IMG/VR virus record: IMGVR_UViG_2671180695_000008
Direction: 5' to 3' (one strand)
Origin: a virus
Taxonomy: Duplodnaviria > Heunggongvirae > Uroviricota > Caudoviricetes
DNA: 13,072 nucleotides
A program made the translations under genes and the position numbers. This document shows positions 2 to 12,644 of this stretch, one piece after another. Under the pieces are notes generated by a model. That model saw nothing but the letters and a program-made list of their open reading frames with translations. It was not told where the DNA came from and made no database searches. Each line of letters starts with the position of its first letter. Position 1 is the first letter of the stretch.

Positions 2-157
2 TTAACCGGTAAACGGGTGGTGTCTGTCCAGAAAGATGGTCGCAGAATTGAATATACGGCGGCTTCTCTGGATGAGCTTAACCGGGCGATCAATGATGCG
101 GAGTCGGTACTGGGGACAACCCGCCGTCGCCGTCGTCCGCTGGGAGTGAGGTTATGA
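2..157 (+). CDS. Head completion protein (lambda gpW-like), C-terminal part; 5' end lies outside the window
   Basis: Frame-2 translation ...GKRVVSVQKDGRRIEYTAASLDELNRAINDAESVLGTTRRRRRPLGVRL* resembles the C-terminus of lambda gpW as recalled (GKRVATVQKDGRRVEFTA...RRRG). Its stop overlaps the portal ATG (ATGA), and it sits directly upstream of the portal as in lambda W-B. Confidence 0.6.
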   Translation, partial: LTGKRVVSVQKDGRRIEYTAASLDELNRAINDAESVLGTTRRRRRPLGVRL

Positions 158-1026: not shown

Positions 1027-1103
1027 AACCCTTGCTGCGTCTGGAATGTCGTTTTCCATGCTTTTGATGACCGTTCATCACCCTTCCAGTTTTTCGCGGT
1101 TTT

Positions 1104-1156
1104 GTGTATTGCAATGTGTATTGCAAATTGGCGATCGGGATGGGTGTGTATTGCAA
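1104..1156. repeat. Three direct copies of GTGTATTGCAA just upstream of int; candidate integrase arm-type binding sites
   Basis: Copies at 1104..1114, 1116..1126 and 1146..1156. Related copies lie at the opposite end of the element (11770..11790). Confidence 0.55.
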
Positions 1157-1174
1157 ATCTCTTGAGGGCTTTTA

Positions 1175-2416
1175 ATGGCTATTGAAAACAAACTCAGTGA
1201 CAAACTGTTAAAGAGTCTTGTCGGAAAACGGCAGGACAAACAAAAAACAATAGCGGATGGGCGCGGGTTGTCTGTGCGTGTAAGCATGGTTGGGGGGATC
1301 AGCTTTGTTTTTTACTATCGTCTTGGTGGCAGGGAATCCCCTCCGGTATGGCTTACACTTGGTCGCTATCCTGACATGTCTCTTGCAACGGCCAGGCGCA
1401 TGCGTGATCAGTGCCGTGAATGGCTGGCTGAAAATCTGGACCCCCGCAGGCAAATAAAACTTGCTGCCGAAAAAACTATGCAACCAGTGACCGTAAGGGA
1501 TGCGCTGTTTTACTGGTACGACAATCACGCCACAACAGCCAGAAAAGAGCATGAATATTTAATAAAACGATTTGAAAAGCATATCTTCCCCTATATCGGT
1601 GATATGGCTATAGAACAGTGCAAATTACACACATGGCTTACCGTCTTTGACAGGATCAAAAAAAATGCGCCTGTTATGTCTGGTGCAATTTTTCTTGATA
1701 TCAAACAGGCGTTGCGTTTTTGTCGCGTCAGGCAATACATCGCGTGCGATCCCTTTGGAGATATTAACGTAAGTTATGTCGGGCGCTCATCCGGTATAAG
1801 GGATCGCGTTCTTAATATCAATGAAACCGCTGATGTATGGTCTTATGCTTACGGTAATAATTTGCTAACTCTGTCATCAATATATAACCGAAGAATAATG
1901 GTTATCTGCCTGGTGTTTGGTTGCCGACAGCAGGAGGCGAGGCTATCCACCTGGGACGAATGGGATTTAAAAAACTGGGTATGGACAGTCCCAAAAGAGC
2001 ACAGCAAAAACAAGGAGGCTATAGTAAGGCCTGTTCCTGACGGAATAAAACAATGGATCGTTAATCTTTACGCAGAAACAAAAAATCGCGGTTATGTTGT
2101 CGGTTGTGCTTTGCAAAGGGCGACAATAACAGGGGCTGCAAACAGAATATGCAGGCGTCTTGGTCATGATACTAATGGCTTGTGGTGCATACATGATTTC
2201 AGGCGCACATTTTCCACTACGCTTAATGATATGGGGGCGGATCCTTATATTGTCGAACTTCTTTTAGGTCATAAAGTGAAAGGGGTTGCTGGTGTTTACA
2301 ATAAAAGCAGGCATATAAAGAAAAAACTTGAGGTGCTTAATATGTGGGTTAATTACCTTAATACGATAGCAGGATTTAACAACAACGTTATCGAGCTTAA
2401 TAAAGAGGTGGTGTGA
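1175..2416 (+). CDS. int: Tyrosine recombinase / integrase (P4-type)
   Basis: 413 aa ORF. N-terminal arm-binding-like region and a C-terminal catalytic region with HDFRRTF...LLGHK...GVAGVY motifs typical of phage integrases. First gene inside the insertion, next to the junction and arm-type repeats. Confidence 0.9.
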   Translation: MAIENKLSDKLLKSLVGKRQDKQKTIADGRGLSVRVSMVGGISFVFYYRLGGRESPPVWLTLGRYPDMSLATARRMRDQCREWLAENLDPRRQIKLAAEKTMQPVTVRDALFYWYDNHATTARKEHEYLIKRFEKHIFPYIGDMAIEQCKLHTWLTVFDRIKKNAPVMSGAIFLDIKQALRFCRVRQYIACDPFGDINVSYVGRSSGIRDRVLNINETADVWSYAYGNNLLTLSSIYNRRIMVICLVFGCRQQEARLSTWDEWDLKNWVWTVPKEHSKNKEAIVRPVPDGIKQWIVNLYAETKNRGYVVGCALQRATITGAANRICRRLGHDTNGLWCIHDFRRTFSTTLNDMGADPYIVELLLGHKVKGVAGVYNKSRHIKKKLEVLNMWVNYLNTIAGFNNNVIELNKEVV

Positions 2417-2417
2417 T

Positions 2418-2675
2418 ATGGCAATTTATTCTCTTGTTGATGAAAACGATTTGCGCACAATGAAGGACATTGATCGGTTCATTCGTGAAAAAGAGTGCAT
2501 AGCACTTACCACGCTGGCAAACTCAACACGCTGGAAAATGGAGCAGGCAGGTAAATTCCCGCGACGTATCAAGATCGGTGAACGTGCTGCAGGGTATCGA
2601 CTTTCAGAGGTTCAGGCATGGATCCGTGGTGAGTGGCATCCTGGATGGAAACCTGGAAAAACAAAACAGCAATAA
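2418..2675 (+). CDS. alpA: AlpA-family HTH regulator / excisionase-like protein
   Basis: 85 aa; motif ...ALTTLANSTRWKMEQAGKFPRRIKIGERAAGYRLSEVQAWI matches the AlpA (Phage_AlpA) fold pattern. Its start overlaps the int stop, and a strong SD (AGAGGTGG) precedes it. Confidence 0.85.
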   Translation: MAIYSLVDENDLRTMKDIDRFIREKECIALTTLANSTRWKMEQAGKFPRRIKIGERAAGYRLSEVQAWIRGEWHPGWKPGKTKQQ

Positions 2676-2688
2676 CCAGTAAATAATG

Positions 2689-2711
2689 CCCCTCATCACG
2701 AGGGGTTTTTT
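2689..2711 (+). terminator. Rho-independent terminator after alpA
   Basis: Stem CCCCTC (2689..2694) pairs with GAGGGG (2700..2705) around loop ATCAC, followed by TTTTTT (2706..2711). Confidence 0.8.
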
Positions 2712-2731
2712 GTCTATAAGGTAAAAACGCG

Positions 2732-3310
2732 ATGAATAAAAATATTGCTGTGACGGGCAAGGGGTACGCTCGTCCAGTGAAAAAATTCTGCGATATTCGT
2801 GATCTCGTCGTTCTGCGCTTTGATAGTGTGAACGTTCGTGTGGTGTATCTGAACGGCGATCCGTGGTTTGTTGCAAAAGATGTTTGTGCTGCGCTGGAAC
2901 TAACCAATTCGCGTACGGCGTTGCAGATGCTTGATGATGATGAAAAGGGAGTAAATTTAACTTACACCCCAGGAGGAAATCAGAATATGAGAATTATCTC
3001 TGAGTCAGGTTTCTACAAACTAATAGCCCGCAGCCGCAAAGCAACGACGCCTGGCACATTTGCTCATCGTTTCAGTAACTGGGTATTCAGAAATGTGATA
3101 CCAGGTATCAGAAAAACGGGGACTTATGGTATCCCGTGGGGTGCATTACAGGATTTTTCCCGCCGTAAAGAGCAATATCAAATAAGTGCCAGCGAGAAGG
3201 GGAGGGAGCTACAGGCATGTAAGCGCAAAAAGCGTGAGCTGGAGGAAGAAGAAAAAACGCTGATACGTGAATATCAGCCTGAGTTTTACTTTGGTAACCG
3301 CATTCAGTGA
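2732..3310 (+). CDS. Bro-N domain protein (phage antirepressor-like)
   Basis: 192 aa; the segment VRVVYLNGDPWFVAKDVCAALELTNSRTALQMLDDDEKG...ISESGFYKLIARSRKATTPGTFAHRFSNWV has the Bro-N / AntA N-terminal pattern (D/E-PWFVAKDV...L.....A). The C-terminal part is charged and probably coiled. Confidence 0.7.
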   Translation: MNKNIAVTGKGYARPVKKFCDIRDLVVLRFDSVNVRVVYLNGDPWFVAKDVCAALELTNSRTALQMLDDDEKGVNLTYTPGGNQNMRIISESGFYKLIARSRKATTPGTFAHRFSNWVFRNVIPGIRKTGTYGIPWGALQDFSRRKEQYQISASEKGRELQACKRKKRELEEEEKTLIREYQPEFYFGNRIQ

Positions 3311-3340
3311 CAAAACAAAGGCGACCGCAAAAGGGTCGCC
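3311..3340 (-). terminator. Hairpin acting mainly as a minus-strand intrinsic terminator, between the convergent Bro and minus-strand genes
   Basis: Stem GGCGACC (3320..3326) pairs with GGTCGCC (3334..3340) around loop GCAAAAG. On the minus strand it is followed by TTTGTTTTGT (plus 3311..3319). No U-run follows on the plus strand. Confidence 0.6.
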
Positions 3341-3406
3341 AGTGGGAACAAGGGAAAACAAAAGCATCACCAACAATGCCACATTTGCGGCTGGTGGGCA
3401 ATGTGA

Positions 3407-3586
3407 TCAGTCAGATTTGGTTCGTTCCAAGGTTTGCAACGAGAGCTTTTTCCTGTGCTCTTTAAGGAATTTCTCAAGAGCAAACGAACAAGGTGCGAAT
3501 CTTTCTGATTCATGTTCATGCGCTATATTTTTGCGTCGTCTCTTACGAGTTGGTGATGGTGTTTTGGTTGATTCTGTGTCGCTCAT
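3407..3586 (-). CDS. Small basic hypothetical protein (59 aa), absent from the supplied ORF track
   Basis: Translated by hand from the minus strand: MSDTESTKTPSPTRKRRRKNIAHEHESERFAPCSFALEKFLKEHRKKLSLQTLERTKSD*. An AGGA lies 8 nt upstream of the ATG; it follows the 3644..3949 gene and precedes the minus-strand terminator. Confidence 0.45.
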   Translation of the reverse strand: MSDTESTKTPSPTRKRRRKNIAHEHESERFAPCSFALEKFLKEHRKKLSLQTLERTKSD

Positions 3587-3643
3587 GGTGCTGTCCTGTA
3601 AAGCAATGCGCCTGCGTTCCTCAAACTATGGCGCTGATATTGG

Positions 3644-3949
3644 CTATTCATGCTCTTTGACCTTGCGTCGCTGGAGTTCTTCACGCGCGACGGTGACGAG
3701 TTGCCCGATCTCCTCGGCTGCTTTGATGCCGATTTGTTCGACCTTAGCCAGGGCATCCAGTGACGACACAAGGGGATTTTCTCCGCTGCCTTCTGCTTGG
3801 CGGCGGGCTATTTCTCCGCGCATGGCGGTTACGATAAATCCGGCATTGCTTTCACCGTCCAGCTTAACGGATTCCATCCCTTGCATAACATCTAGTGGGA
3901 CTCTGACAGTTGTCAGTTGTGATTTTGCGTTTTTGTTAGCCGTTGCCAT
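3644..3949 (-). CDS. Hypothetical small regulator (possible DNA-binding protein), divergent from the rightward operon
   Basis: 101 aa with a strong SD (TAGGAGTTTCAGAA-ATG on the minus strand). It is transcribed divergently from a palindromic operator region. No family is recognised with confidence; a ribbon-helix-helix-like N-terminus is possible but unverified. Confidence 0.55.
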   Translation of the reverse strand: MATANKNAKSQLTTVRVPLDVMQGMESVKLDGESNAGFIVTAMRGEIARRQAEGSGENPLVSSLDALAKVEQIGIKAAEEIGQLVTVAREELQRRKVKEHE

Positions 3950-3970
3950 TTCTGAAACTCCTAATCATCG

Positions 3971-4048
3971 GTGTGTTTCAGTATACACAAAAAAAGAAAT
4001 ACAAAAAGCCTTGACGTGTGTTTCATGCGCTCATAACATGAAACACAC
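3971..4048. promoter_or_regulatory. Divergent control region with a 12-bp perfect inverted repeat, a third half-site and a candidate rightward promoter
   Basis: GTGTGTTTCATG (4016..4027) and its reverse complement CATGAAACACAC (4037..4048) are separated by 9 bp. A further GTGTGTTTCA half-site lies at 3971..3980. TTGACG (4011..4016), a 17-bp spacer and TAACAT (4034..4039) overlap the palindrome. Confidence 0.55.
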
Positions 4049-4139
4049 CGAAAGGATTGTTGAAATACAAAGAGCAACGCCCCGCAGTGCTGGGAACACA
4101 TACGGGGCGTCTAACCAACAACGTAAACTAGGAGCCGTT

Positions 4140-4337
4140 ATGGTTGCTGTAAATCATATACCACACCTTGTACACACACAAACGGCCTTTGTGTGGCGTT
4201 TTCTGGCACTGAGTGCCGGAGAATCTCAAATCATCCACGTAACCGCCTGGACGGAACGCGAAGCGCGTAGCCGTTGCCCGTCCGGTTGTGTTGCTGTATT
4301 CGCTGCAAAAATCCGCCAGGGAGTGAGTCATGCTTAA
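4140..4337 (+). CDS. Hypothetical small protein (65 aa), possible first gene of the rightward operon
   Basis: ATG preceded by AGGAG at the correct spacing. It shares a frame with a long, compositionally odd ORF (3267..4337) that is otherwise rejected, so coding status is uncertain. Confidence 0.35.
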   Translation: MVAVNHIPHLVHTQTAFVWRFLALSAGESQIIHVTAWTEREARSRCPSGCVAVFAAKIRQGVSHA

Positions 4338-4515
4338 AACCTTCCGTGTATTTGCCCGAGCTGTTAACCCAATAGGCCACACAATTGGTATCGCTCAGAA
4401 TGTGAAGGCTGTTAATGTTCAGACGGCTATTGCTGCGGTGAGAAGCGAATCATCAGAATATGGCTTATCACAAGTCATTATTTCAGCAGTGTATGAATTA
4501 AAAGAGGTGCATTAA
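4330..4515 (+). CDS. Hypothetical protein (61 aa)
   Basis: SD GGAGTGAG upstream. Its stop overlaps the next start (TAATG), suggesting translational coupling. Confidence 0.5.
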   Translation: MLKTFRVFARAVNPIGHTIGIAQNVKAVNVQTAIAAVRSESSEYGLSQVIISAVYELKEVH

Positions 4516-4706
4516 TGCAGGAAATTACATTACACGAAGCCGCTGAACGTGCGCACCAGACAGAAATTATTTGCCGCCTTCTTGAGGTATACCCGAACAA
4601 AATTACAGATGCTGATATATCCGCACTGGCGAGCCTACTGGCGCGTCTTTCGGGAAGTGTCGCTAGTTTTTTGATTGAGGAAGAAAGTAAGCTGGTGGGG
4701 GATTAA
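4515..4706 (+). CDS. Hypothetical protein (63 aa)
   Basis: SD AAGAGG upstream; start is coupled to the preceding stop. Confidence 0.5.
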   Translation: MQEITLHEAAERAHQTEIICRLLEVYPNKITDADISALASLLARLSGSVASFLIEEESKLVGD

Positions 4707-4928
4707 ATGAATACAGAACGGGAAGTCTTTTTTAAATTGTTAGCATGTGCAGAAAGTTCATTAACTTTAAATAATTCAGCAAAAGCAATATTAAATATGT
4801 GGCTTGATTGCATAAATGACAATGAAGATGCAAATATTGCTTATGGCCTGTTGTCACTTATTGATGAATCAGCAGAAAAACTCAATGACGCAATAAATAG
4901 TGCCCTGCTATCAAATAAGTCGAGTTAA
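4707..4928 (+). CDS. Hypothetical protein (73 aa), visibly more AT-rich than its neighbours
   Basis: Starts immediately after the previous stop. Its base composition differs from flanking genes, suggesting a separately acquired cargo gene. Confidence 0.5.
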   Translation: MNTEREVFFKLLACAESSLTLNNSAKAILNMWLDCINDNEDANIAYGLLSLIDESAEKLNDAINSALLSNKSS

Positions 4929-4945
4929 GTCGAGGAATAAATAAT

Positions 4946-5245
4946 ATGGAAATGAAAAATTCTGGCTTTATTGCCAGCGGCCCCGCTCGACCTGAATTTA
5001 TGAACGGCGATATTTACCGCGATAAATACGGCGGCACGGTAACGATTAAAGGCGTGGCAGAACGGCGCATCACTTACCGCCGTGAGGGGTATAGCTATGA
5101 CTGCGTGATGCCTGTTTATCAGTTCCGGCGTGATTTTTCCCTGGTATATGCCGCACCCCGCAGTAAGCCCATCAGCAGGGAAAAAGCGTGGGGAAATATC
5201 CAGAAAATGAAAACCATGATTAACGGATTCAGAGGTAAAAAATGA
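4946..5245 (+). CDS. Hypothetical protein (99 aa)
   Basis: SD GAGGA upstream. Its stop overlaps the primase-helicase start (ATGA), placing it in the replication operon. Confidence 0.55.
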   Translation: MEMKNSGFIASGPARPEFMNGDIYRDKYGGTVTIKGVAERRITYRREGYSYDCVMPVYQFRRDFSLVYAAPRSKPISREKAWGNIQKMKTMINGFRGKK

Positions 5246-6996
5246 AACTGGCACCGAACGTAAAACAGCAGTCACGCGGCATAAAACACAAAGGAACAGA
5301 AGTCATTATTTTTGCGGGTAGTGATGCCTGGGCACACGCGAAACAATGGCAGGAACATGATGCGCGTATGGCCGGAGATAATGAGCCTCCTGTGTGGCTT
5401 GGGGAGCAGCAGCTATCCGAACTGGATAATCTGCAAATTGTGCCGGAAGGCCGAAAATCAGCACGCATATACAGGGCCGGATATCTTGCGCCTGTAATGA
5501 TAAAGGCGATTGGTCAGAAGCTGGCGGCAGCAGGCGTACAGGATGCAAATTTTTATCCTGAGGGTATGCACGGCCAGGAGGTGCAGAACTGGCGCGAATA
5601 TCTGGCCCGTGAACGCCAGAATCTTTCTGATGGTCTGGTCATTGAGCTTCCGGTAAAGCAAAAGGCGCAACTTTCGCAGATGGCGGACAGTGAGCGCGCG
5701 CAGTTGCTTGCCGATCGCTTTGATGGCGTTTGCGTACATCCTGAAAGTGAAATCGTTCACGTATGGCGCGGCGGGGTATGGTGTCCGGTCAGCACAATGG
5801 AACTTAGCCGCGAAATGGTGGCGATCTATTCAGAGCACAGGGCCACTTTCAGCAAGCGCGTAATCAATAACGCCGTGGAAGCGTTAAAAGTTATTGCCGA
5901 ACCAATGGGCGAGCCGTCTGGCGATTTGCTGCCGTTCGCCAATGGTGCGCTTGACCTGAAAACGGGGGAATTTTCCCCGCACACGCCGGAGAACTGGATC
6001 ACCACGCACAACGGCATTGAGTACACGCCACCAGCACCAGGGGAGAACATCCGCGATAACGCGCCAAACTTTCATAAATGGCTTGAGCACGCAGCCGGAA
6101 AAGACCCGCGCAAGATGATGCGTATATGTGCCGCGCTGTACATGATTATGGCGAACCGGTACGACTGGCAGATGTTTATTGAGGCCACCGGAGACGGCGG
6201 GAGCGGTAAAAGTACATTCACACACATAGCCAGCCTTCTGGCAGGGAAACAGAACACGGTAAGCGCTGAAATGACATCGCTTGATGATGCTGGTGGACGT
6301 GCGCAGGTTGTCGGGAGTCGTCTTATCGTCCTGGCTGACCAGCCGAAATATACAGGCGAAGGAACGGGCATCAAGAAAATCACAGGCGGCGACCCCGTGG
6401 AAATTAACCCGAAATATGAAAAGCGTTTCACGGCGGTAATCAGGGCGGTGGTGCTGGCGACCAACAACAACCCGATGATATTCACCGAACGGGCCGGAGG
6501 TGTGGCACGTCGTCGCGTGATTTTCCGTTTCGACAATATCGTCAGTGAGGCCGAAAAAGACAGGGAGCTACCGGAAAAGATTGCGGCTGAAATCCCCGTT
6601 ATTATCCGCCGATTGCTGGCGAACTTTACCGACCCTGAGAAGGCACGGGCTTTACTACTGGAACAGCGTGACGGTGATGAAGCACTGGCAATAAAGCAAC
6701 AGACGGATCCGGTTATTGAGTTTTGCCAGTTCCTGAATTTTCTGGAGGAAGCGCGCGGCCTGATGATGGGTGGCGGTGGTGATTCAGTGAAGTACACGAC
6801 CAGGAACAGCCTTTACCGCGTCTATCTGGCGTTTATGGCATACGCGGGCAGGAGCAAACCGCTAAACGTGGCTGAGTTCAGCAAGGCCATGAAGCCAGCG
6901 GCGAAAGTTTACGGGCATGAATATATTACGCGAAAAGTTAAGGGAGTAACGCAGACCAACGCAATTACAACAGACGATTGCGACGCGTTTTTATAA
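5242..6996 (+). CDS. Replication protein: P4-alpha / D5-type primase-helicase (SF3 P-loop NTPase)
   Basis: 584 aa. Walker A motif ATGDGGSGKST, a D5_N-like segment LPFANGALDLKTGEF and a following NTPase core resemble the C-terminal helicase region of P4-family primases. The N-terminal ~150 aa are not confidently assigned. An iteron array follows immediately. Confidence 0.85.
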   Translation: MKLAPNVKQQSRGIKHKGTEVIIFAGSDAWAHAKQWQEHDARMAGDNEPPVWLGEQQLSELDNLQIVPEGRKSARIYRAGYLAPVMIKAIGQKLAAAGVQDANFYPEGMHGQEVQNWREYLARERQNLSDGLVIELPVKQKAQLSQMADSERAQLLADRFDGVCVHPESEIVHVWRGGVWCPVSTMELSREMVAIYSEHRATFSKRVINNAVEALKVIAEPMGEPSGDLLPFANGALDLKTGEFSPHTPENWITTHNGIEYTPPAPGENIRDNAPNFHKWLEHAAGKDPRKMMRICAALYMIMANRYDWQMFIEATGDGGSGKSTFTHIASLLAGKQNTVSAEMTSLDDAGGRAQVVGSRLIVLADQPKYTGEGTGIKKITGGDPVEINPKYEKRFTAVIRAVVLATNNNPMIFTERAGGVARRRVIFRFDNIVSEAEKDRELPEKIAAEIPVIIRRLLANFTDPEKARALLLEQRDGDEALAIKQQTDPVIEFCQFLNFLEEARGLMMGGGGDSVKYTTRNSLYRVYLAFMAYAGRSKPLNVAEFSKAMKPAAKVYGHEYITRKVKGVTQTNAITTDDCDAFL

Positions 6997-7010
6997 TTTT
7001 TTGTAAAAGC

Positions 7011-7232
7011 CATCTACCCCATCTACCTGAACAAAATAAACGCATATTATTCAACATGATAAGTGGGTATAGGGCTAGGTAGAAGGCTAATAAAAGCTCT
7101 CTACCTCTTCTACCTGATTTTATCAGTTTCAGGTAGCAGGGTAGACGGCAGGTAGAGGAGTCAAAAAGCTATCTACCCGCTGAAAGCCGCGCCATTACTG
7201 ACATGATGAGCATTCGGGTAGATGGGTAGAGG
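7011..7232. repeat. Iteron array; candidate replication origin
   Basis: About 11 copies of the core TCTACC / GGTAGA in both orientations within ~220 bp (for example CATCTACCCCATCTACC, CTCTACCTCTTCTACC, GGTAGCAGGGTAGACGGCAGGTAGAGG, GGTAGATGGGTAGAGG). It lies directly downstream of the primase-helicase gene in an otherwise non-coding stretch. Confidence 0.7.
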
Positions 7233-7280
7233 GGGGGAGGCACAACTAAAAACTTTTTAAACGAGGGGGGGTGAAAATAA

Positions 7281-7595
7281 ATGCGCATACATAAAAATCA
7301 CTTAACAAACATGCCAGCCGAAAACATGAATCAGGGGCGACAAATGACCAAAATTCGCAGAGACAGAACACAGGCAAAATATAAAGCGTTAGACATGACA
7401 GAGCTTTCCTTAAAGGTGGCAATCAAAGCGATAGACCACCACACACGGGCAGGATACGCGAAGGAACATCCCGACCTGATAAGCGCATTCATGACCACAG
7501 CAGCGGCAAACTTTGCCACGCTGACAGAACGGGAGATTGCCGAAGCGGAACAGGTGACAACCATCAATGTTAAAACCGGAGAGCAGACAGCATGA
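7281..7595 (+). CDS. Hypothetical protein (104 aa)
   Basis: G-rich SD (GAGGGGGGG) upstream. Its stop overlaps the next start (ATGA). The start codon is uncertain because internal Met codons exist. Confidence 0.5.
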   Translation: MRIHKNHLTNMPAENMNQGRQMTKIRRDRTQAKYKALDMTELSLKVAIKAIDHHTRAGYAKEHPDLISAFMTTAAANFATLTEREIAEAEQVTTINVKTGEQTA

Positions 7596-8014
7596 CAGCA
7601 CAGATAGCGGCTTACGGGCGGCTGGTGGCTGACCCGCAGTTAAAGACCACCAGCAAAGGGACACAAATGGCGATGGCGAGTATGGCGGTTCCCCTGCCGT
7701 GCAGCCAGGCAGATGACGGAACGGCGACGATGTGGTTATCCGTCCTGGCGTTTGGCAGACAGGCCGACGCACTGGCAAAACACCACAAAGGCGAACTGGT
7801 GAGCGTGGCGGGTAACATGCAGGTAAGCCAGTGGACAGGCCAGAACGGCGAAACGCGGCGGGGCTGGCAGGTTATCGCAGACAGCGTAATCAGTGCGCGA
7901 ACGGCGCGACCGGGCGGCAAAAAAGGCCAGCAGGGGCAGGCCACTGACGCACTGAACAGGGCAAAACAACAGTCGGGGAATGATGATCCGTACGGCGATA
8001 ATATACCGTTTTAA
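7592..8014 (+). CDS. ssb: Single-stranded DNA-binding protein-like (OB fold, C-terminal ...NIPF tail)
   Basis: 140 aa with the pattern GRLVADPQL...G...A.......W.SV.AFG..A..LAK..KGELV.V.G......W....G..R.....ADSV, then a Gly/Gln-rich linker ending DDPYGDNIPF. This resembles the SSB OB core and its acidic ...DDDIPF protein-interaction tail. Confidence 0.7.
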   Translation: MTAQIAAYGRLVADPQLKTTSKGTQMAMASMAVPLPCSQADDGTATMWLSVLAFGRQADALAKHHKGELVSVAGNMQVSQWTGQNGETRRGWQVIADSVISARTARPGGKKGQQGQATDALNRAKQQSGNDDPYGDNIPF

Positions 8015-8021
8015 ATTCTGC

Positions 8022-8050
8022 AAACAAAAAGATGCCGGAAAAAAATAGAT
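8022..8050. other. 11-bp-stem hairpin in the SSB / capsid intergenic region (possible terminator or regulatory structure)
   Basis: ATGCCGGAAAA (8022..8032) pairs with TTTTCCGGCAT (8040..8050) around a 7-nt loop. No clean U-run follows on the plus strand, so terminator function is uncertain. Confidence 0.4.
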
Positions 8051-8225
8051 TTTCCGGCATGCTACATAAATCCCGACCAAAGGAAGTAAATACATTAACA
8101 CGAATTATCAGCACTGAAGTTGTTACGGCATATTTTATACAACATTGCACTTGGTTGCATGTATTCGCATAGCAGACATCGGTAATAGAATATATTCACA
8201 ATTATTTGTAATGAATGTAAAGAGG

Positions 8226-9272
8226 ATGAGTATGGTTGATTTATATTCGCCTACACAGCTTGTGCAGGTGGCTAATGCTGAAGATGTGCAAAAAAAATTA
8301 AATGCGTTGTTTACCAGTTTGTTTTTCACTCGCTCGGTAATGTTTGAATCGAGAGACATTATTCTTGATACGATCGACGATCCAAATATCCCGATCGCGG
8401 CGTTTTGCTCTCCTATGGTGGGCAGTAAAGTTTCACGAGATGAGGGATACGAATCAAAAACAATTCGTCCAGGTTATATGAAGCCGAAAAGCAGCATTGA
8501 TCCAAATAAGTTAGCTGTGCGCCCTGCTGGTGTGTCACCTGAGCAATACAATGCTTTTGGGGCGCGTAATATTAAAGTTAAACAGGCGATTGTAAATCAG
8601 GCTAAAGCTATTCGTGCACGTATTGAATGGCTTGCTGTTCAGGCAATCACAACGGGGAAAAATATCATTGAGGGCGATGGTATTGAACGTTATGAGCTGG
8701 ACTGGAATATAAAACCACAAAATATCATCACTCAGTCTGGCGGTACTGAGTGGTCAGGTAAGGATAAAGAAACTTTTGATCCAAATGATGATATTGAGAG
8801 CTACGCAGAATTTAGTGAGGGCGTCACTAATATCATCATTATGGGTGGTAATGTATGGAAGAAATACCGTTCATTCAGAGCGATAAAAGAGGCTTTGGAT
8901 ACCCGTCGTGGTTCTAATTCCGAACTGGAAACGGCCCTTAAAGACCTTGGTGATTCGGTGAGTTTTAAAGGGTATATGGGCGATGTTGCGATTGTTGTTT
9001 ACAGCGGGCGTTATACCGACGAGGACGGAACAGAAAAACATTTCCTTGATCCTGATTTGATGGTGCTTGGCAATACGGCTCTTCAGGGGATTGTCGCCTA
9101 TGGCGGTATTCAGGATCCGGAGCTAATCCGAATGGGGCTGACTAAAGCCGAACTTGCACCGAAAAACTATATTGTGCCTGGTGATCCGGCTATTGAATAT
9201 GTGCAGACACATTCAGCACCACAGCCAATACCGGCCCGCATCAATCGTTTTGTTACCGTTCGCATTGGCTAA
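8226..9272 (+). CDS. Major capsid protein (lambda gpE-like)
   Basis: Motifs NIITQSGGTEWS, DTRRGSNSELETA, GDVAIVVYSG and MVLGNT match lambda E as recalled. The chosen start MSMVDLYSPTQL parallels lambda MSMYTTAQL and has SD AGAGGA; the ORF track's upstream start at 8145 is less likely. Confidence 0.85.
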   Translation: MSMVDLYSPTQLVQVANAEDVQKKLNALFTSLFFTRSVMFESRDIILDTIDDPNIPIAAFCSPMVGSKVSRDEGYESKTIRPGYMKPKSSIDPNKLAVRPAGVSPEQYNAFGARNIKVKQAIVNQAKAIRARIEWLAVQAITTGKNIIEGDGIERYELDWNIKPQNIITQSGGTEWSGKDKETFDPNDDIESYAEFSEGVTNIIIMGGNVWKKYRSFRAIKEALDTRRGSNSELETALKDLGDSVSFKGYMGDVAIVVYSGRYTDEDGTEKHFLDPDLMVLGNTALQGIVAYGGIQDPELIRMGLTKAELAPKNYIVPGDPAIEYVQTHSAPQPIPARINRFVTVRIG

Positions 9273-9281
9273 GGGGGAGCA

Positions 9282-9623
9282 ATGGCTACTCATTACACTG
9301 AACTCATGGCTGGCACTGAAGCACTGGTGACTACGCTGGGGATATTTTCAGCTAATAAAGGGGTAATTCCTGCATTTACGCCACTGATGCAGGAAGATGC
9401 AACAGGTGCACTGGTGGTATGGGATGGTTCGAGCGTAGGTAAAGCGGTTTATGTTTCCGCTGTACAAATCGACACAGCGAAAAAAACACAGGCACAGGTT
9501 TATAAGACAGGTGTTTTAAATGTTGATGCTCTGAACTGGCCTGAGTCTGTAAAAGAACTGTCGGCAAAGGTTGCCGCGTTTGTTGGCTCAGGTATTTCTG
9601 TTCAGCCGCTGGCTCGTGTGTAA
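9282..9623 (+). CDS. Head decoration protein (lambda gpD-like)
   Basis: 113 aa; the pattern TPLM....G.LV.WDG...G.AV.......T.....YK.G......L.WPE matches lambda D as recalled. SD GGGGGAG upstream. It follows the capsid gene, the reverse of the lambda D-E order. Confidence 0.75.
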   Translation: MATHYTELMAGTEALVTTLGIFSANKGVIPAFTPLMQEDATGALVVWDGSSVGKAVYVSAVQIDTAKKTQAQVYKTGVLNVDALNWPESVKELSAKVAAFVGSGISVQPLARV

Positions 9624-9634
9624 AGGGGGATACA

Positions 9635-10018
9635 ATGCAGAATCATTACAATGACCTTAAGCCAATTGCCGAAATGATGTATCCGGATCCAGCAGTAGAG
9701 GAATTAAAGGCTATTGCTGACAAAATGCGTTTAAGTGAACGCCTTGTTGATATGAATCAGGTGATGGAACTTACTACCCTTAGCCGTCGCACATTGCTAA
9801 ACCTTGAGGCTCGCGGAGAGTTCCCCGAACGCGTACAGGTTACGGAAGGGCGTAAGGCCTGGTATTTAAGTGAAGTGATCGACTGGATAAACAATATTCC
9901 TCGATCTTCTGAATATTGCCGCGTACCTGTCCCAAAAAAGCCAGATGCGGCGCTATGCCTCAAGATTGAGCGTGTACGTCGCAATGCACGGGATGGTCGC
10001 TATAAGTTGATTGGTTGA
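9635..10018 (+). CDS. AlpA/MerR-like HTH domain protein (second AlpA-family member)
   Basis: 127 aa; the segment VDMNQVMELTTLSRRTLLNLEARGEFPERVQVTEGRKAWYLSEVIDWI fits the AlpA-type HTH pattern. It has an N-terminal extension and a basic C-terminus, a GGGGGA SD upstream, and lies immediately upstream of the cos site. Confidence 0.6.
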   Translation: MQNHYNDLKPIAEMMYPDPAVEELKAIADKMRLSERLVDMNQVMELTTLSRRTLLNLEARGEFPERVQVTEGRKAWYLSEVIDWINNIPRSSEYCRVPVPKKPDAALCLKIERVRRNARDGRYKLIG

Positions 10019-10029
10019 TGAAATTAGGG

Positions 10030-10108
10030 CCCGTTCTGGCTGGCGGGTCCTTTCCGGCGATCCGGTAGGCTACGGGGCGGCGACCTCGCGGGTTTTCGCT
10101 ATTTATGA
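10030..10108. other. Lambda-type cos site (cosQ-proximal sequence plus cosN with the 12-nt cohesive end GGGCGGCGACCT)
   Basis: 10072..10108 ACGGGGCGGCGACCTCGCGGGTTTTCGCTATTTATGA is identical to the recalled lambda cosN / left-end sequence (cohesive end at 10075..10086). The upstream GGGTCCTTTCCGGCGATCCGGTAGGCTACG closely matches the recalled lambda right-end sequence. Downstream cosB-like sequence has diverged, and a Nu1-like gene follows. Confidence 0.85.
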
Positions 10109-10219
10109 GCCTTTTTCGGGTGCTGGTGGTGGTTTTGTTGTTCGCTCTATCTCTATGAATAAAAAGGAAAAGATAAAGCCAATACACCAACCTGAAACAT
10201 TACTTAAGTGGGGATATTG

Positions 10220-10762
10220 ATGAAATCGCACCTGATGAACAAAAAAAACATGGCGCAAAGCTGCCATGTAAGTGCGACAGCGTTCGACAAGTGGGGAGTG
10301 ACTCCCGTTGAACGTAAAGGCCGCGAGGCGTTTTATGATGTTGCCAGCGTAATAGACAATCGGGTTAGCAATGCAATTAACCAGATTACAGACGACAAAG
10401 GCGAGATTGATGATGATGAACTCCTACGAGTCAGGATCAGATTGCTGACAGCACAGGCAGAGGCGCAGGAGCTTAAAAACGAGCGCGAACGCGGCGACGT
10501 TATTGATACCGCGTTTTGTATATACGTGCTTTCAAAATTGGCGAGTCAGATTTCTTCAATCATGGACAGCCTGCCGCTTGCCATGACAAGGAAGTTTCCC
10601 GACATGAAGCCGTCTATGCTGGATGGACTGAAAAAAGAAGTTATCAGAGCCTGTAACGCATGCGCAAAACTTGACGAAAACATACCGCTGATGCTGTCCG
10701 ATTATCTGATGGAAACTGCCGGAAACGTACCGGATAAGTTGCAGCCGAATAAAGATAAGTAA
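10220..10762 (+). CDS. Terminase small subunit (lambda Nu1-like)
   Basis: Matches lambda Nu1 by recall (RLTRAQADAQELKNARD...ETAFC.FVLSRIAGEIASILDGLPL...RFPE compared with RLLTAQAEAQELKNERERGDVIDTAFCIYVLSKLASQISSIMDSLPLAMTRKFPD). Start is uncertain: ATG at 10220 (GGGGA SD) is chosen, with alternatives GTG 10208 and ATG 10235. It sits downstream of cos as in lambda. Confidence 0.85.
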   Translation: MKSHLMNKKNMAQSCHVSATAFDKWGVTPVERKGREAFYDVASVIDNRVSNAINQITDDKGEIDDDELLRVRIRLLTAQAEAQELKNERERGDVIDTAFCIYVLSKLASQISSIMDSLPLAMTRKFPDMKPSMLDGLKKEVIRACNACAKLDENIPLMLSDYLMETAGNVPDKLQPNKDK

Positions 10763-10773
10763 CGTAGTACGCT

Positions 10774-11055
10774 ATGACTGAATCCGAAATACTGCGATTA
10801 ATCCGCCGTGCTTGTGGAATCAGCAAGCAGCATGACGAACAGGCCACGCAGCCGGACAGCGTGACCGCAGATAATTATGTGCGTGTAGTGGCTGAGGTGA
10901 TGCGCCGTGACGGTATTGAGCTTAACGGCGTGGATATGCGCAACATACGAACAAGAGTCCTTGAGTTGCTGGCATATCGTCGCCGTTCTCAACAACGGAG
11001 GGAGAGCGCGAAAAACACTTACCAGTGGAAGAAGCCGGAACGATTGCGGCGGTAA
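10774..11055 (+). CDS. Hypothetical basic protein (93 aa) in the position where lambda encodes the large terminase
   Basis: ORF starts 11 nt after the TerS stop and is Arg-rich. No convincing family match; no obvious SD, so possibly translationally coupled. Confidence 0.45.
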   Translation: MTESEILRLIRRACGISKQHDEQATQPDSVTADNYVRVVAEVMRRDGIELNGVDMRNIRTRVLELLAYRRRSQQRRESAKNTYQWKKPERLRR

Positions 11056-11070
11056 CTTGCTGATATTCCC

Positions 11071-11094
11071 GATAACGCAAAATTGCGCTGGCTG
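11071..11094. repeat. Direct repeat GATAACGC-N5-TTGCGCTGGCTG (copy 1; copy 2 at 11257..11280)
   Basis: The two 24-bp copies differ at 3 positions and lie 186 bp apart in the non-coding right arm. Each is followed by a TTGCA/TGCAA-type near-palindrome. Confidence 0.5.
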
Positions 11095-11306
11095 ACTTGT
11101 TGCATTGCAAAAAGTTAAGCAGGAAGGCACGGCCTGTAAGATGGGATGCAGTAAGTAGTTCAAGGCTACCTTGTGCTGGCACGCACAGTTAAGCCGTCGG
11201 TGCTGGATATCCCCCACTGGGGGAAAAGCTGGCTACATCCCTCACATCTGAGGACTGATAACGCGACATTGCGCTGGCTGGCAAAGTGCAAAATTGCACG
11301 ATGGCC

Positions 11307-11468
11307 TAACCCATTGATTATTTCGAAAACCTGCAATGCAGGAAATCGGGGAAGTAAGCCTAAGCTATTGATTGTTTCGAAAACCCCCATTGGGGGATGT
11401 CGGGAAAGTAAGACTAACCCATTGATTCTTCCACAATCCTCAATTTGAGGAGGCCGGAACGTCTACAT
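11307..11468. repeat. Tandem ~54-bp repeat (3 units) each containing a 5-bp-stem, 3-nt-loop hairpin with covarying stems; candidate structured RNA or recognition array
   Basis: Units 11307..11360, 11361..11414 and 11415..11468 share TAA(C/G)C(C/T)ATTGATT...TTCGAAAAC and CGGG.AAGTAAG flanks. Internal hairpins are CCTGC-AAT-GCAGG (11330..11342), CCCCC-ATT-GGGGG (11384..11396) and CCTCA-ATT-TGAGG (11438..11450). The third unit is more diverged. Confidence 0.6.
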
Positions 11469-11769
11469 AGCTGCATCGCCGTAATGATGATTCAGCCCAC
11501 CAGCCAAATCAGCACAGCAACGACAGAATAGCCCGACACAGAAAAACCACGAATATGGGGTTTTTGTTATGACATGGTCATGATGACCACTCATACAAAA
11601 CAGGTAAAGCCCACCAGCCTGATTAAAGGTTAACCGGAAAAAAGCCAGGTATCCAATCTCGATATGGGGATCCCTATATCGACATTAACGCCCACTAAAA
11701 CTGTGCATATATGCATAGAAAAAGCATCCACCAGCTTTATGACGGATGCCGCTCATCTTATAAATAATC

Positions 11770-11790
11770 GTGTATTGCAGTGTGTATTGC
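11770..11790. repeat. Two direct copies of GTGTATTGC(A) near the right junction; candidate integrase arm-type sites
   Basis: GTGTATTGCA at 11770..11779 and GTGTATTGC at 11782..11790, in the same orientation as the three copies beside int. An AT-rich tract lies between them and the att core. Confidence 0.5.
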
Positions 11791-11864
11791 GACTCCTTTA
11801 AACGATAGGTCTGAGCATTCGTAATGTACTGTTTTTAAATTTTATTTTTTCCTGTCTTTTCATA

Positions 11865-11877
11865 AAGGCGATGTATG
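11865..11877. other. Candidate attR core (AAGGCGATGTATG)
   Basis: Matches 967..979 at 12 of 13 positions. Portal homology resumes here (IKAMYAATIE...). Confidence 0.65.
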
Positions 11878-12644
11878 CAGCGACGATTGAAAGTGACCTT
11901 GATACCGAAAAGGCCTTTGAATATATCGCCGGTGCGCCGCAGGGGCAGAAGGATAATCCGCTTATTAATATTCTGGATAAGTTCTCCACCTGGTATGACA
12001 CGAATAGCGTGACGCTGGGTGGTGTCAAAATTCCGCACCTTTTCCCCGGTGATGATCTGAAACTTCAGACCGCGCAGGATTCAGACAATGGATTTTCGGC
12101 GCTTGAACAGGCGCTGCTGCGGTATATCGCCGCCGGTCTTGGCGTTTCCTACGAACAGTTGTCCCGTGATTACTCGAAGGTCAGTTATTCAAGTGCCCGC
12201 GCATCCGCCAATGAGTCGTGGCGCTATTTTATGGGGCGGCGAAAATTTATTGCGTCCCGGCTGGCCACGCAGATGTTTTCCTGCTGGCTGGAAGAGGCAC
12301 TTCTTCGGGGGATTATTCGTCCGCCACGGGCACGTTTTGATTTTTATCAGGCGCGATCAGCCTGGTCACGGGCTGAGTGGATTGGAGCCGGAAGAATGGC
12401 CATTGACGGGCTCAAGGAGGTTCAGGAATCAGTGATGCGCATTGAGGCCGGACTGAGCACGTATGAGAAAGAGCTGGCGCTGATGGGCGAGGATTATCAG
12501 GACATTTTCCGCCAGCAGGTCAGGGAATCTGCAGAGCGGGAAAAAGCCGGACTCTCACGTCCGGTGTGGATAGCGCAGGCGTATCAGCAGAAGATAGCGG
12601 AGAGTCGCAGGCCGGAAGAGGAGACAACACCACGTGAGACGTAA
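11871..12644 (+). pseudogene. Portal protein (lambda gpB-like), C-terminal fragment downstream of the insertion
   Basis: Translation MYAATIESDLDTEKAFEYI...LGGVKIPHLFPGDDLKLQTAQDSDNGFSALEQALLRYIAAGLGVSYEQLSRDYSKVSYSSARASANESWRYFMGRRKF...WIGAGRMAIDGLKEVQESVMRIEAGLSTYEKE matches the lambda gpB C-terminal half by recall. The ORF begins at a fortuitous in-frame ATG, and similarity starts at about 11862. Confidence 0.85.

What the first reader, a model, noticed from the sequence alone, without database searches (positions are those of the whole stretch)
9635..10018. Second AlpA-type HTH protein positioned immediately upstream of cos and terS
The first AlpA homolog sits beside int, the usual excision or activation position. 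This second HTH protein, with an N-terminal extension and basic tail, sits at the packaging module. It may activate late genes, recognise cos, or redirect helper packaging; the function is open.
Basis: inference. Interest (0 to 1): 0.5.

Follow-up and report, generated by a model that had tools for sequence, protein, structure and literature searches.

The report
Second AlpA regulator in satellite capsid operon
A phage satellite embedded in a lambda-like prophage carries a second AlpA-type DNA-binding protein that always travels with the satellite's own capsid genes and most likely switches on that capsid operon, not the packaging site beside it.

Summary
ORF 9635..10018 is a real 127-aa gene under purifying selection (dN/dS 0.08). 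Its central winged helix-turn-helix belongs to the AlpA/excisionase family (Pfam PF05930, 35 bits against a cut-off of 21; 45% identical to the solved GIsul2 excisionase). It is the second such gene in a helper-embedded PICI satellite. It ends 56 nt before a lambda-type cos nick site and precedes a Nu1-like terS.

Comparison of 16 satellite loci from about ten enterobacterial genera shows an invariant block: capsid gene, decoration gene, this gene, then cos. The integrase, the int-proximal regulator, the replicase, terS and cosB all vary around it. Every conserved cos element is explained by cosQ, cosN or TerS sites. None tracks this gene.

What does track it is an array of 3-5 direct repeats (ATTGCAC-like) at exact 10-bp phasing. 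The array ends 31 nt before an extended -10 element upstream of the capsid gene. This layout resembles the PrtN/P-box system.

Best explanation (about 0.5, inferred): a late activator of the satellite's own capsid operon. Cos recognition, Rpp-like redirection and excisionase roles are less likely. No paper in the library describes the late-zone paralogue. Interest is moderate.

The parts
9635..10018 (+). alpA2: 127-aa late-zone AlpA-family protein (the finding)
   Evidence: ORF. Pfam PF05930 at 35 bits against a cut-off of 21, and phrog_2790 at 163 bits. PGAP annotation. dN/dS 0.08.
9624..9630 (+). Shine-Dalgarno AGGGGGA of alpA2, 4 nt before the ATG; the gap to the decoration gene is only 11 nt, so co-transcription is likely
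   Evidence: Sequence read directly.
9740..9904 (+). Codons 36-90: winged helix-turn-helix core (recognition helix residues 51-60 = 9785-9814; wing residues 67-77)
   Evidence: AlphaFold pLDDT above 90. 8c3t at rmsd 0.9 A and 45% identity. Nearly invariant TTLSRRTLLNLE across homologues.
8135..8160 (+). Three direct repeats TTATAC / TTGCAC / TTGCAT at exact 10-bp phasing; proposed AlpA2 operator of the capsid promoter
   Evidence: Present at the same place in all 16 alpA2 loci with 2-5 recognisable units. Absent from helper DNA and from EcCICFT073. A triple array arises in 1 of 1000 shuffles of the window.
8186..8191 (+). -10-like hexamer TAGAAT (TGnTAGCAT, an extended -10, in relatives), 31 nt after the start of the last repeat; repeats are then centred near -40.5, -50.5 and -60.5
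   Evidence: Promoter scan. A repeat unit sits 29-31 nt upstream of the -10-like element in all 12 loci aligned; in 9 of them that unit is the last one.
8232..9272 (+). Satellite major capsid gene (lambda gpE family), first gene of the proposed operon
   Evidence: Pfam Phage_cap_E at 141.6 bits. PGAP start ATG 8232 and 346 aa in all loci.
9282..9623 (+). Satellite head-decoration gene (lambda gpD family)
   Evidence: Pfam HDPD at 56.4 bits.
10043..10055 (+). cosQ-like element GCGGGTCCTTTCC, 24 nt after the alpA2 stop
   Evidence: Identical to the helper cos. Conserved in all loci.
10075..10086 (+). cosN cohesive-end sequence GGGCGGCGACCT
   Evidence: Identical to the helper prophage and lambda.
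10122..10142 (+). Satellite-type cosB site GCTGGTGGTGGTTTTGTTGTT at the R3 position; assigned to the satellite TerS, not to AlpA2
   Evidence: Present only in loci that carry the Nu1-like terS. Replaced by helper-type cosB in L005, L006 and L010.
10181..10195 (+). Inverted partner site AATACACCAACCTGA (R2-like)
   Evidence: Conserved in terS-bearing loci.
10220..10762 (+). Satellite small terminase (Nu1 family; the conserved C-terminal part matches the profile region that in lambda Nu1 binds TerL, while the N-terminal DNA-binding part has diverged)
   Evidence: Pfam Phage_Nu1 at 85.9 bits over profile positions 79-162, and phrog_57. 37% identical to the helper NohD-like TerS.
2418..2675 (+). 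alpA1: the canonical int-adjacent AlpA (contrast paralogue)
   Evidence: Pfam PF05930 at 52 bits. 33% identical to AlpA2.
1103..1158 (+). attL arm repeats TGTGTATTGCA (12-bp spacing), with a partner copy at 11770-11794; they track the integrase/AlpA1 type, not AlpA2
   Evidence: Described as a doubled att motif in PMC10111431.

Best explanation
AlpA2 is a dedicated late regulator, most likely an activator, of the satellite's own capsid operon (capsid, decoration, alpA2, and by read-through cos and terS).

Proposed mechanism. The first AlpA2 molecules are made when transcription enters the operon from upstream. That transcription is helper late (Q-modified) transcription reading through the embedded satellite, or AlpA1-driven satellite transcription. 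Through its winged helix-turn-helix, AlpA2 binds head-to-tail to the 10-bp-phased ATTGCAC-type repeats at 8135-8160. The repeats are centred near -40, -50 and -60 of a promoter that has an extended -10 but no good -35. AlpA2 recruits or stabilises RNA polymerase there. This gives positive feedback that keeps capsid, decoration and TerS synthesis high after the satellite has excised and is no longer fed by the helper's late promoter. The N-terminal helical pair and the basic C-terminal helix would serve oligomerisation or polymerase contact.

Shown: the family, the fold, the selection on the gene, the gene order, the co-inheritance with the repeat array, and the array's fixed geometry relative to a -10 element.

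Inferred: that AlpA2 is the protein bound there, that binding activates, the source of the first transcripts, and the roles of the extensions.
For: (1) Family and fold. PF05930 at 35 bits. The AlphaFold core is confident. The nearest solved structures are the excisionases 8c3t and RdfS, then BldC. The nearest viral models are AlpA regulators and PrtN pyocin activators. A PF05930 member, EcCICFT073 AlpA, is an experimentally shown transcriptional activator (PMC6092414).

(2) Module linkage. In 16 alpA2 loci (E. coli, Enterobacter, Kosakonia, Kluyvera, Superficieibacter, Cedecea, Buttiauxella, Scandinavium, Serratia, plus metagenomic contigs) the order capsid-decoration-alpA2 is invariant. Integrase type, int-proximal regulator, replicase, terS and cosB all vary. 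In E. coli, 408 genomes carry alpA2 and 399 carry this capsid clade.

(3) Operator. Every locus has an array of up to 5 direct repeats (2-5 recognisable units) at exact 10-bp spacing upstream of the capsid gene, within otherwise unalignable intergenic DNA. A repeat unit sits 29-31 nt upstream of a TGnTAGCAT-type -10 in all 12 loci aligned, and in 9 of them that unit is the last one. A triple array arises by chance in 1 of 1000 shuffles. None occurs in 85 kb of helper and CFT073 DNA.

(4) Dissociation from AlpA1. L002, L010, L011 and L017 have other integrases and no AlpA1 homologue, yet keep the array. The att-arm motif TGTATTGCA-N3-TGTATTGCA follows the integrase clade instead.

(5) The repeat unit drifts where the AlpA2 recognition helix and wing change (TTATAC in L002/L003; TTAGAC/TTGTGC in Serratia).

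(6) Precedent. [quoted passage not shown] The array here lies 59-84 bp upstream of the capsid Shine-Dalgarno sequence.
Against: There is no experiment. Because the array, capsid, decoration gene and alpA2 are one co-inherited block, co-occurrence cannot separate AlpA2 from another binder, such as a host factor or a helper protein. TTGC-N6-TTGC is also the lambda CII box. The covariation of repeat unit and recognition helix rests on two or three independent events and could be shared drift.

The transcription start is predicted, not mapped. In the window the -35 region TTCGCA is a partial match, so the promoter may not need an activator. Binding could repress instead of activate. An activator encoded at the end of the operon it activates needs a separate trigger.

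The closest solved relatives are excisionases. EcCICFT073, with related capsid and decoration genes, manages without this gene. Its capsid and decoration genes were dispensable for transfer, so the operon's importance is itself unclear.
Confidence: 0.5

Rival explanations
1. Cos-binding packaging accessory. AlpA2 binds at or near the satellite cos (encoded 24-56 nt downstream of its stop) and helps TerS/TerL recognise or cut satellite DNA.
For: The adjacency alpA2-cos is conserved: cosQ lies 27-54 nt after the stop in all loci. The fold is shared in a general way with TerS DNA-binding domains (7lwr/7lw0 at E 0.17-0.26; 6hn7_B at E 0.42).
Against: The DNA between the stop codon and cosQ is not conserved. 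Every conserved block in cos is cosQ, cosN, the cosN-proximal CGCTATTTATGA, or the paired GGTGGTGG-type sites, and those paired sites occur only when the satellite terS is present. No TTGCAC-type array lies in any cos region. alpA2 is kept unchanged in satellites with helper-type cosB and no terS (L005, L006, L010). EcCICFT073 has the same cos layout behind an unrelated gene.
Confidence: 0.1
2. Rpp-like interference. AlpA2 binds the helper's small terminase and blocks or redirects helper packaging.
For: Rpp is also a small winged-HTH protein encoded next to a PICI cos (PMC6739421). AlpA2 has a C-terminal helix that could mediate protein contacts.
Against: There is no sequence similarity to RppA or RppC. 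Rpp occupies the slot downstream of cos, where this element has a full Nu1-like terS. A satellite with its own TerS and cosB does not need an adaptor. The gene's presence is independent of packaging strategy.
Confidence: 0.07
3. Second excisionase (recombination directionality factor), acting on the satellite's Int or standing in for the helper's Xis.
For: The closest solved structures are excisionases (8c3t GIsul2 Xis, RdfS, Pukovnik Xis). In EcCIMP1 a second AlpA-family gene at the far end of a PICI can partly substitute for the helper's Xis (PMC11773190).
Against: AlpA2 stays constant while integrase clade and integration site change (portal, capsid gene, fis, yljB-clpS), whereas directionality factors co-vary with their integrase. 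Each satellite already has an int-proximal small HTH protein. The att-arm repeats differ from the capsid-promoter array and track the integrase. There is no similarity to the helper's lambda-type Xis. The helper DNA has no matching repeat arrays.
Confidence: 0.12
4. The repeat array is bound by something else (AlpA1, a lambda CII-like helper protein, or a host factor), and AlpA2 regulates other targets, such as helper genes or satellite early genes.
For: TTGC-N6-TTGC equals the lambda CII recognition repeat (own knowledge). The helper encodes a CII homologue. AlpA1-type proteins are the known master activators of PICI genes.
Against: CII boxes straddle the -35 region as a single pair. Here 3-5 units sit further upstream. 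CII acts in early lysogeny and would be an odd trigger for capsid synthesis. The array persists with myovirus-type helpers (L002, L003) and in loci without AlpA1. The unit sequence changes with AlpA2 divergence.
Confidence: 0.16

Closest known systems
PICI master regulator AlpA (EcCICFT073 AlpA; Pfam PF05930)
   Same: Same Pfam family and winged-HTH core. It is encoded by a Gram-negative PICI and is experimentally a transcriptional activator that feeds back on its own promoter (PMC6092414).
   Different: The canonical AlpA is 70-85 aa and directly follows int. AlpA2 is 127 aa, with a 35-aa N-terminal helical extension and a 37-aa basic tail. It sits 7 kb away as the last gene of the capsid operon, shares only 33% identity with AlpA1, and has a different recognition helix.
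PrtN activator and P-box of Pseudomonas pyocin genes
   Same: A small excisionase-like winged-HTH activator of phage-derived structural genes. [quoted passage not shown] PrtN-annotated viral models are structural neighbours (E 4e-3 to 2e-2).
   Different: No PrtN Pfam hit at E up to 0.1. The unit sequence differs (ATTGCAC against ATTGnn(n)GT). PrtN is controlled by the SOS-sensitive repressor PrtR and is encoded outside the operons it activates.
P4 delta at Psid, and P2 Cox at the P4 PLL promoter (own knowledge, not checked with tools)
   Same: Satellite late morphogenetic operons depend on a dedicated activator. Delta is encoded inside the sid-delta-psu operon it activates. Cox is an excisionase-fold protein that binds arrays of phased direct repeats and activates a satellite promoter.
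   Different: Delta is a zinc-finger Ogr-type protein, not a winged HTH. Cox is helper-encoded. The helpers here are lambdoid and use Q antitermination for late genes.
Rpp (RppA/RppC) of EcCICFT073-type PICIs
   Same: A small winged-HTH protein encoded next to a lambda-type cos in a PICI late zone.
   Different: There is no sequence similarity. Rpp lies downstream of cos, has its winged HTH at the N-terminus plus a coiled-coil dimer domain, and acts by binding helper TerS. The element here carries a complete Nu1-like TerS in that position.
EcCIMP1 alpA_1
   Same: The only described second AlpA-family gene in an E. coli PICI. The authors note that typical PICIs have only one (PMC11773190).
   Different: alpA_1 lies at the far end on the opposite strand, resembles the helper's Xis and partly substitutes for it. 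EcCIMP1 has no capsid or terS genes.
GIsul2 excisionase (PDB 8c3t) and RdfS
   Same: The closest solved structures: 45% identity and 0.9 A over the winged-HTH core.
   Different: These are 57-73-aa directionality factors encoded beside their integrases. They lack the N- and C-terminal segments and the late-operon context.

Membership tests
Pfam PF05930 Phage_AlpA (AlpA/excisionase-type winged HTH) | Profile score above the curated gathering threshold | tested here: met
   35 bits against a cut-off of 21, residues 36-85 covering profile positions 2-51 of 51.
Pfam PF05930 Phage_AlpA (AlpA/excisionase-type winged HTH) | Winged helix-turn-helix fold (strand, helix, recognition helix, beta-hairpin wing, helix) | tested here: met
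   AlphaFold core pLDDT above 90. 8c3t at rmsd 0.9 A over 51 residues, and RdfS, BldC and Xis as next hits.
Pfam PF05930 Phage_AlpA (AlpA/excisionase-type winged HTH) | Gene adjacent to a tyrosine integrase (typical context of AlpA and directionality factors) | tested here: not met
   alpA2 lies 7.2 kb from int, after the decoration gene, in all 16 loci. The int-adjacent slot holds AlpA1 or another small HTH protein.
Pfam PF05930 Phage_AlpA (AlpA/excisionase-type winged HTH) | Sequence-specific DNA binding with regulatory or excisive activity | not testable with these tools
   Only a candidate operator was found (8135-8160).
Rpp (redirecting phage packaging) | Sequence homology to RppA/B/C | tested here: not met
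   phmmer against all PDB chains at E up to 10 finds only 8c3t, not RppC. BLASTP against RppA finds no alignment.
Rpp (redirecting phage packaging) | Encoded just downstream of the PICI cos, replacing a TerS | tested here: not met
   alpA2 is upstream of cos. The downstream slot holds a Nu1-family terS.
Rpp (redirecting phage packaging) | Binds helper TerS to form a heterocomplex | not testable with these tools
   Would need a two-hybrid or pull-down assay.
Small terminase (lambda Nu1 family) | Match to Phage_Nu1 including the C-terminal TerL-binding part | tested here: not met
   AlpA2 has no Nu1 hit. The neighbouring gene 10220..10762 does.
PrtN-type pyocin activators | Membership of the PrtN protein family by profile | tested here: not met
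   No such Pfam family among hits at E up to 0.1. There is only fold-level resemblance to PrtN-annotated viral models.
PrtN-type pyocin activators | [quoted passage not shown] | tested here: met
   Up to 5 repeats (2-5 recognisable units) at 10-bp phasing, 59-84 bp upstream of the capsid Shine-Dalgarno sequence, in every locus. That AlpA2 binds them is untested.
Helper-embedded PICI (the element that carries the gene) | int, alpA and primase co-oriented, inserted in and co-oriented with a lambdoid prophage late gene | tested here: met
   The portal gene is split at about 1026/11871. Flanks are 97% identical to phage 21/lambda-like portal genes. This matches the description in PMC10111431.
P. 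aeruginosa AlpA (Q-like antiterminator) | Eight-helix protein with C-terminal HTH and N-terminal ring that enters the RNA exit channel | tested here: not met
   Different architecture, and no hit in the PDB searches. The shared name is a coincidence.

The most novel reading that the evidence does not exclude
AlpA2 is a bifunctional late switch. It is an excisionase-fold protein that polymerises on the phased repeats to drive the satellite's capsid operon. In addition, through its conserved basic C-terminal helix, it contacts the terminase (helper or satellite TerS) or cos-proximal DNA. Late transcription and selective packaging of the satellite would then be coupled by one protein. That would be an Rpp-like outcome reached by an unrelated lineage.
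Probability: 0.08. Interest if true: 0.65.

Novelty: new variant of a known kind. Interest (0 to 1): 0.4.

Why it matters
Gram-negative PICIs are described as having one AlpA master regulator next to int. Their late ('capsid') zone has no known regulator, and the role of PICI-encoded lambda-type capsid and decoration genes is unresolved.

A dedicated, operator-linked late regulator present in about 7.5% of complete E. coli genomes and in many Enterobacteriaceae would give that module its own control circuit. It would explain how a satellite keeps making its own capsid proteins after it has excised from the helper's late transcription unit. It would also provide a simple handle (delete alpA2 or mutate the repeats) to test what the satellite capsid genes do.

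It further shows that 'AlpA family' annotations hide at least two functionally distinct paralogues within one element.

Tried and rejected
(1) The first AlphaFold run, with 27 close homologues, gave pLDDT 53.6 and was discarded. Adding distant AlpA sequences fixed the core.

(2) The P. aeruginosa AlpA antiterminator was followed as a lead and rejected. It is an unrelated Q-like protein.

(3) I asked whether EcCICFT073 experiments already covered this gene. They did not. Its positional counterpart is an unrelated acidic 137-aa protein.

(4) A sigma-54 reading of TTGCAC-N4-TTGCAT was rejected by inspection. It lacks the invariant GG, and the spacing is 11 instead of 12.

(5) tblastn against 50,697 phage records found no homologue. 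NCBIfam gave no hit. Rfam gave no hit in the window.

(6) A genome-contig scan returned only 4 loci.

(7) One literature search for 'second alpA' returned alpaca papers. The PDB code search was equally useless.

(8) The 3 x 54-nt hairpin repeats downstream of orf93 were folded, with z = -1.6, which is not significant.

(9) Comparison with the helper Xis and with RppA found no similarity.

Full report
THE OBSERVATION

ORF 9635..10018 (+) encodes 127 aa. It starts 11 nt after the stop of the decoration gene, behind a strong AGGGGGA ribosome-binding site. It matches Pfam PF05930 Phage_AlpA at 35 bits (cut-off 21) over residues 36-85, and phrog_2790 end to end. NCBI annotates the identical ORF as an HTH/AlpA-family regulator.

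The only solved structure found by sequence is 8c3t. An AlphaFold model built on an alignment that includes distant AlpA proteins is confident in the core, with pLDDT above 90 for residues 40-90. The core shows strand, helix, recognition helix 51-60, wing 67-77 and helix 78-86. Two N-terminal helices (8-15, 19-33) and a C-terminal helix (105-119) flank it. Foldseek places it next to the GIsul2 excisionase 8c3t (45% identity, 0.9 A), the RdfS excisionase, BldC, GlnR/TnrA and a mycobacteriophage Xis. TerS DNA-binding domains and the RppC-TerS entry appear only at E 0.17-0.42.

The gene is under purifying selection. dN/dS is 0.08 against L006, and the core pN is 0.02-0.03 at a pS of about 0.7. 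A first AlpA homologue (85 aa, 52 bits) abuts int at 2418..2675, and the two share 33% identity over 57 aa.

Downstream lie a cosQ-like element (10043-10055), the lambda cohesive-end sequence GGGCGGCGACCT (10075-10086) and a Nu1-family terS (10220..10762).

WHAT THE ELEMENT IS

The window is a satellite of about 10.8 kb inserted in, and co-oriented with, the portal gene of a lambda/phage-21-like prophage. The prophage sits at the lambda attachment site in strain APEC O2-211. This is the helper-embedded PICI configuration described by Tommasini, Mageeney and Williams (PMC10111431).

That paper places Phage_AlpA in the 'integration zone' and does not mention a late-zone paralogue. A 2025 study of EcCIMP1 states that typical E. 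coli PICIs encode one AlpA (PMC11773190).

COMPARATIVE ANATOMY

Homologues form a tight family restricted to the Enterobacterales (mostly Enterobacteriaceae, plus Serratia). Nearly all are 127 aa, and most share 57-95% identity with the window protein. A few more distant members share about 50%.

I examined 16 loci: the window, L001-L007, L009-L014, L017 and L018. In all of them the order capsid (gpE family), decoration (gpD family), alpA2 is invariant. Around this block almost everything varies:
- The integrase clade and insertion site: portal gene, capsid gene, after Nu1, fis, yljB-clpS.
- The int-proximal regulator: AlpA1, another HTH_17 protein, or none detectable.
- The replicase: D5-type, zinc-ribbon primase, AAA_25 or DUF927.
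- What follows cos: a Nu1-like terS in 9 loci; a tail-assembly-like gene, a TIR gene or other genes elsewhere.

In complete E. coli genomes, alpA2 occurs in 408 of 5426 and this capsid clade (at least 80% nucleotide identity) in 399. No homologue exists in 50,697 phage records.

EcCICFT073, the experimental model PICI, has capsid and decoration genes only about 55% identical. In the alpA2 slot it has an unrelated acidic 137-aa protein, then cos, then RppA where the window has terS. Published EcCICFT073 genetics therefore say nothing about alpA2.

THE COS SIDE

I aligned the regions downstream of alpA2. The conserved blocks are cosQ, cosN (which changes together with the helper type in L002/L003), the cosN-proximal CGCTATTTATGA, a GCTGGTGGTGGTKTTGTTGTT block at the R3 position, and an inverted AATACACCCACCTGA block.

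The last two occur only in loci with the satellite terS. Loci without terS (L005, L006, L010) carry helper-type cosB instead. These blocks therefore belong to TerS.

The 24-54 nt between the alpA2 stop and cosQ are not conserved. No repeat array of the kind described below occurs in any cos region. Nothing in cos is left over for AlpA2 to recognise.

THE PROMOTER SIDE

The intergenic DNA upstream of the capsid gene is otherwise unalignable. Yet every alpA2 locus contains an array of direct repeats, with 2-5 recognisable units, at exact 10-bp spacing:
- Window: TTATAC, TTGCAC, TTGCAT at 8135-8160.
- Enterobacter, Kosakonia and Kluyvera: four units of ATTGCAC type.
- Buttiauxella and Scandinavium: TTATAC units.
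- Serratia: five units, TTAGAC/TTGGGT/TTGTGC.

In all 12 loci aligned, a repeat unit sits 29-31 nt upstream of a conserved TGnTAGCAT-type extended -10 element, which is TAGAAT at 8186-8191 in the window. In 9 of them that unit is the last one. In L013 the array extends one unit further downstream. In L002/L003 the corresponding third unit is degenerate. This puts the units near -40.5, -50.5 and -60.5, which is an activator-type geometry.

A triple array occurs in 1 of 1000 dinucleotide shuffles of the window. None occurs in the helper DNA of L019 and L008 or in EcCICFT073.

The array is kept in loci that lack any AlpA1 homologue (L002, L010, L011, L017). The att-arm motif TGTATTGCA-N3-TGTATTGCA, with 12-bp spacing, follows the integrase clade instead. 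The element thus has two repeat systems, and each segregates with one of the two AlpA-type genes.

The repeat unit changes where the AlpA2 recognition helix and wing change. That is consistent with recognition, but it rests on few independent events.

MECHANISM

PF05930 proteins act as activators, as shown for EcCICFT073 AlpA. Relatives of this fold (BldC, excisionases) bind direct repeats head to tail; that statement is my own knowledge.

The closest functional analogue is PrtN. It is a small protein of similar fold that activates phage-tail-derived pyocin genes. [quoted passage not shown] The array here lies 59-84 bp upstream of the capsid Shine-Dalgarno sequence.

I therefore propose that AlpA2 is the late activator of the capsid-decoration-alpA2(-cos-terS) operon. 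It would be primed by read-through of helper late or AlpA1-driven transcription and then be self-sustaining after excision. This is analogous to delta inside the P4 sid operon (own knowledge).

This remains inference. Co-inheritance cannot exclude another binder. TTGC-N6-TTGC is also the lambda CII box. The start site is unmapped. Repression is possible.

RIVALS

- Cos accessory factor (0.10).
- Rpp-like terminase binder (0.07).
- Second excisionase (0.12).
- 'Array bound by something else, AlpA2 acts elsewhere' (0.16).

The evidence against each comes from the dissociations above, from the absence of similarity to Rpp, and from the absence of similarity to the helper Xis.

VERDICT

Novelty is modest but real: an undescribed, widespread late-zone AlpA paralogue with a candidate operator, inside a known kind of satellite and a known protein family.

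Noticed in passing
window 154-1026 and 11871-12644; satellite about 1027-11870: The whole satellite is inserted in, and co-oriented with, the portal gene of a lambda/21-like prophage. Relatives split the helper's major capsid gene or sit after Nu1. This is the published helper-embedded PICI configuration. The same late module also occurs in chromosomal PICIs (yljB-clpS, fis).
   Followed up: yes
window 10122-10142 and 10181-10195: The satellite has its own cosB: a GGTGGTGG-type site and an inverted partner at the R3/R2 positions. They are present only with the satellite Nu1-like terS. Satellites without terS carry helper-type cosB. EcCICFT073's cos has CACCACCACCAC at the equivalent position, so Rpp and this TerS may read related DNA although the proteins show no sequence similarity.
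   Followed up: partly
window 11304-11465: Three tandem 54-nt repeats, each holding a different 13-nt perfect hairpin or palindrome (CCTGCAATGCAGG, CCCCCATTGGGGG, CCTCAATTTGAGG). The pairing is kept through changes on both sides. There is no Rfam hit, and the fold z-score is only -1.6. Parts of the queried region 11060-11480, which contains these repeats, recur in about 980 E. coli genomes.
   Followed up: partly
window 11071-11094 and 11257-11280: A 24-nt direct repeat GATAACGCNAMATTGCGCTGGCTG (92% identical), 186 nt apart, between orf93 and the tandem repeats. Function unknown.
   Followed up: no
window 7004-7183: Iteron-like repeats (AAAAGCYMTCTACC, three copies, plus inverted partners) just downstream of the D5-type primase. 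This is the expected satellite replication origin.
   Followed up: no
window 1103-1158 and 11770-11794: Doubled att-arm motif TGTGTATTGCA at 12-bp spacing on both sides of the element. It shares the ATTGCA core with the capsid-promoter repeats but segregates with the integrase clade, not with alpA2.
   Followed up: yes
L008:2084-2497 (E. coli CFT073): In EcCICFT073 the slot between the decoration gene and cos holds an unrelated, very acidic 137-aa protein with no Pfam hit, followed by a terminator hairpin. The slot is therefore a variable position in PICI late zones.
   Followed up: partly
window 10774-11055: orf93 (phrog_1561, no Pfam hit) follows terS here and follows rppA in EcCICFT073 (76% identical). 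It is a conserved unknown of the packaging end of these satellites.
   Followed up: no
window 8145-8231: The mechanical ORF list gives the capsid gene a TTG start at 8145, which would swallow the repeat array and promoter. The ATG at 8232, with an AAGAGG ribosome-binding site, is the start used by NCBI and gives the 346-aa length shared by all relatives.
   Followed up: yes
window 8232-9623: The satellite's capsid and decoration genes are in the order E-D, opposite to lambda's D-E. They are only about 38-45% identical to the helper's own copies, so they are an old satellite lineage and not a recent capture from this helper.
   Followed up: partly
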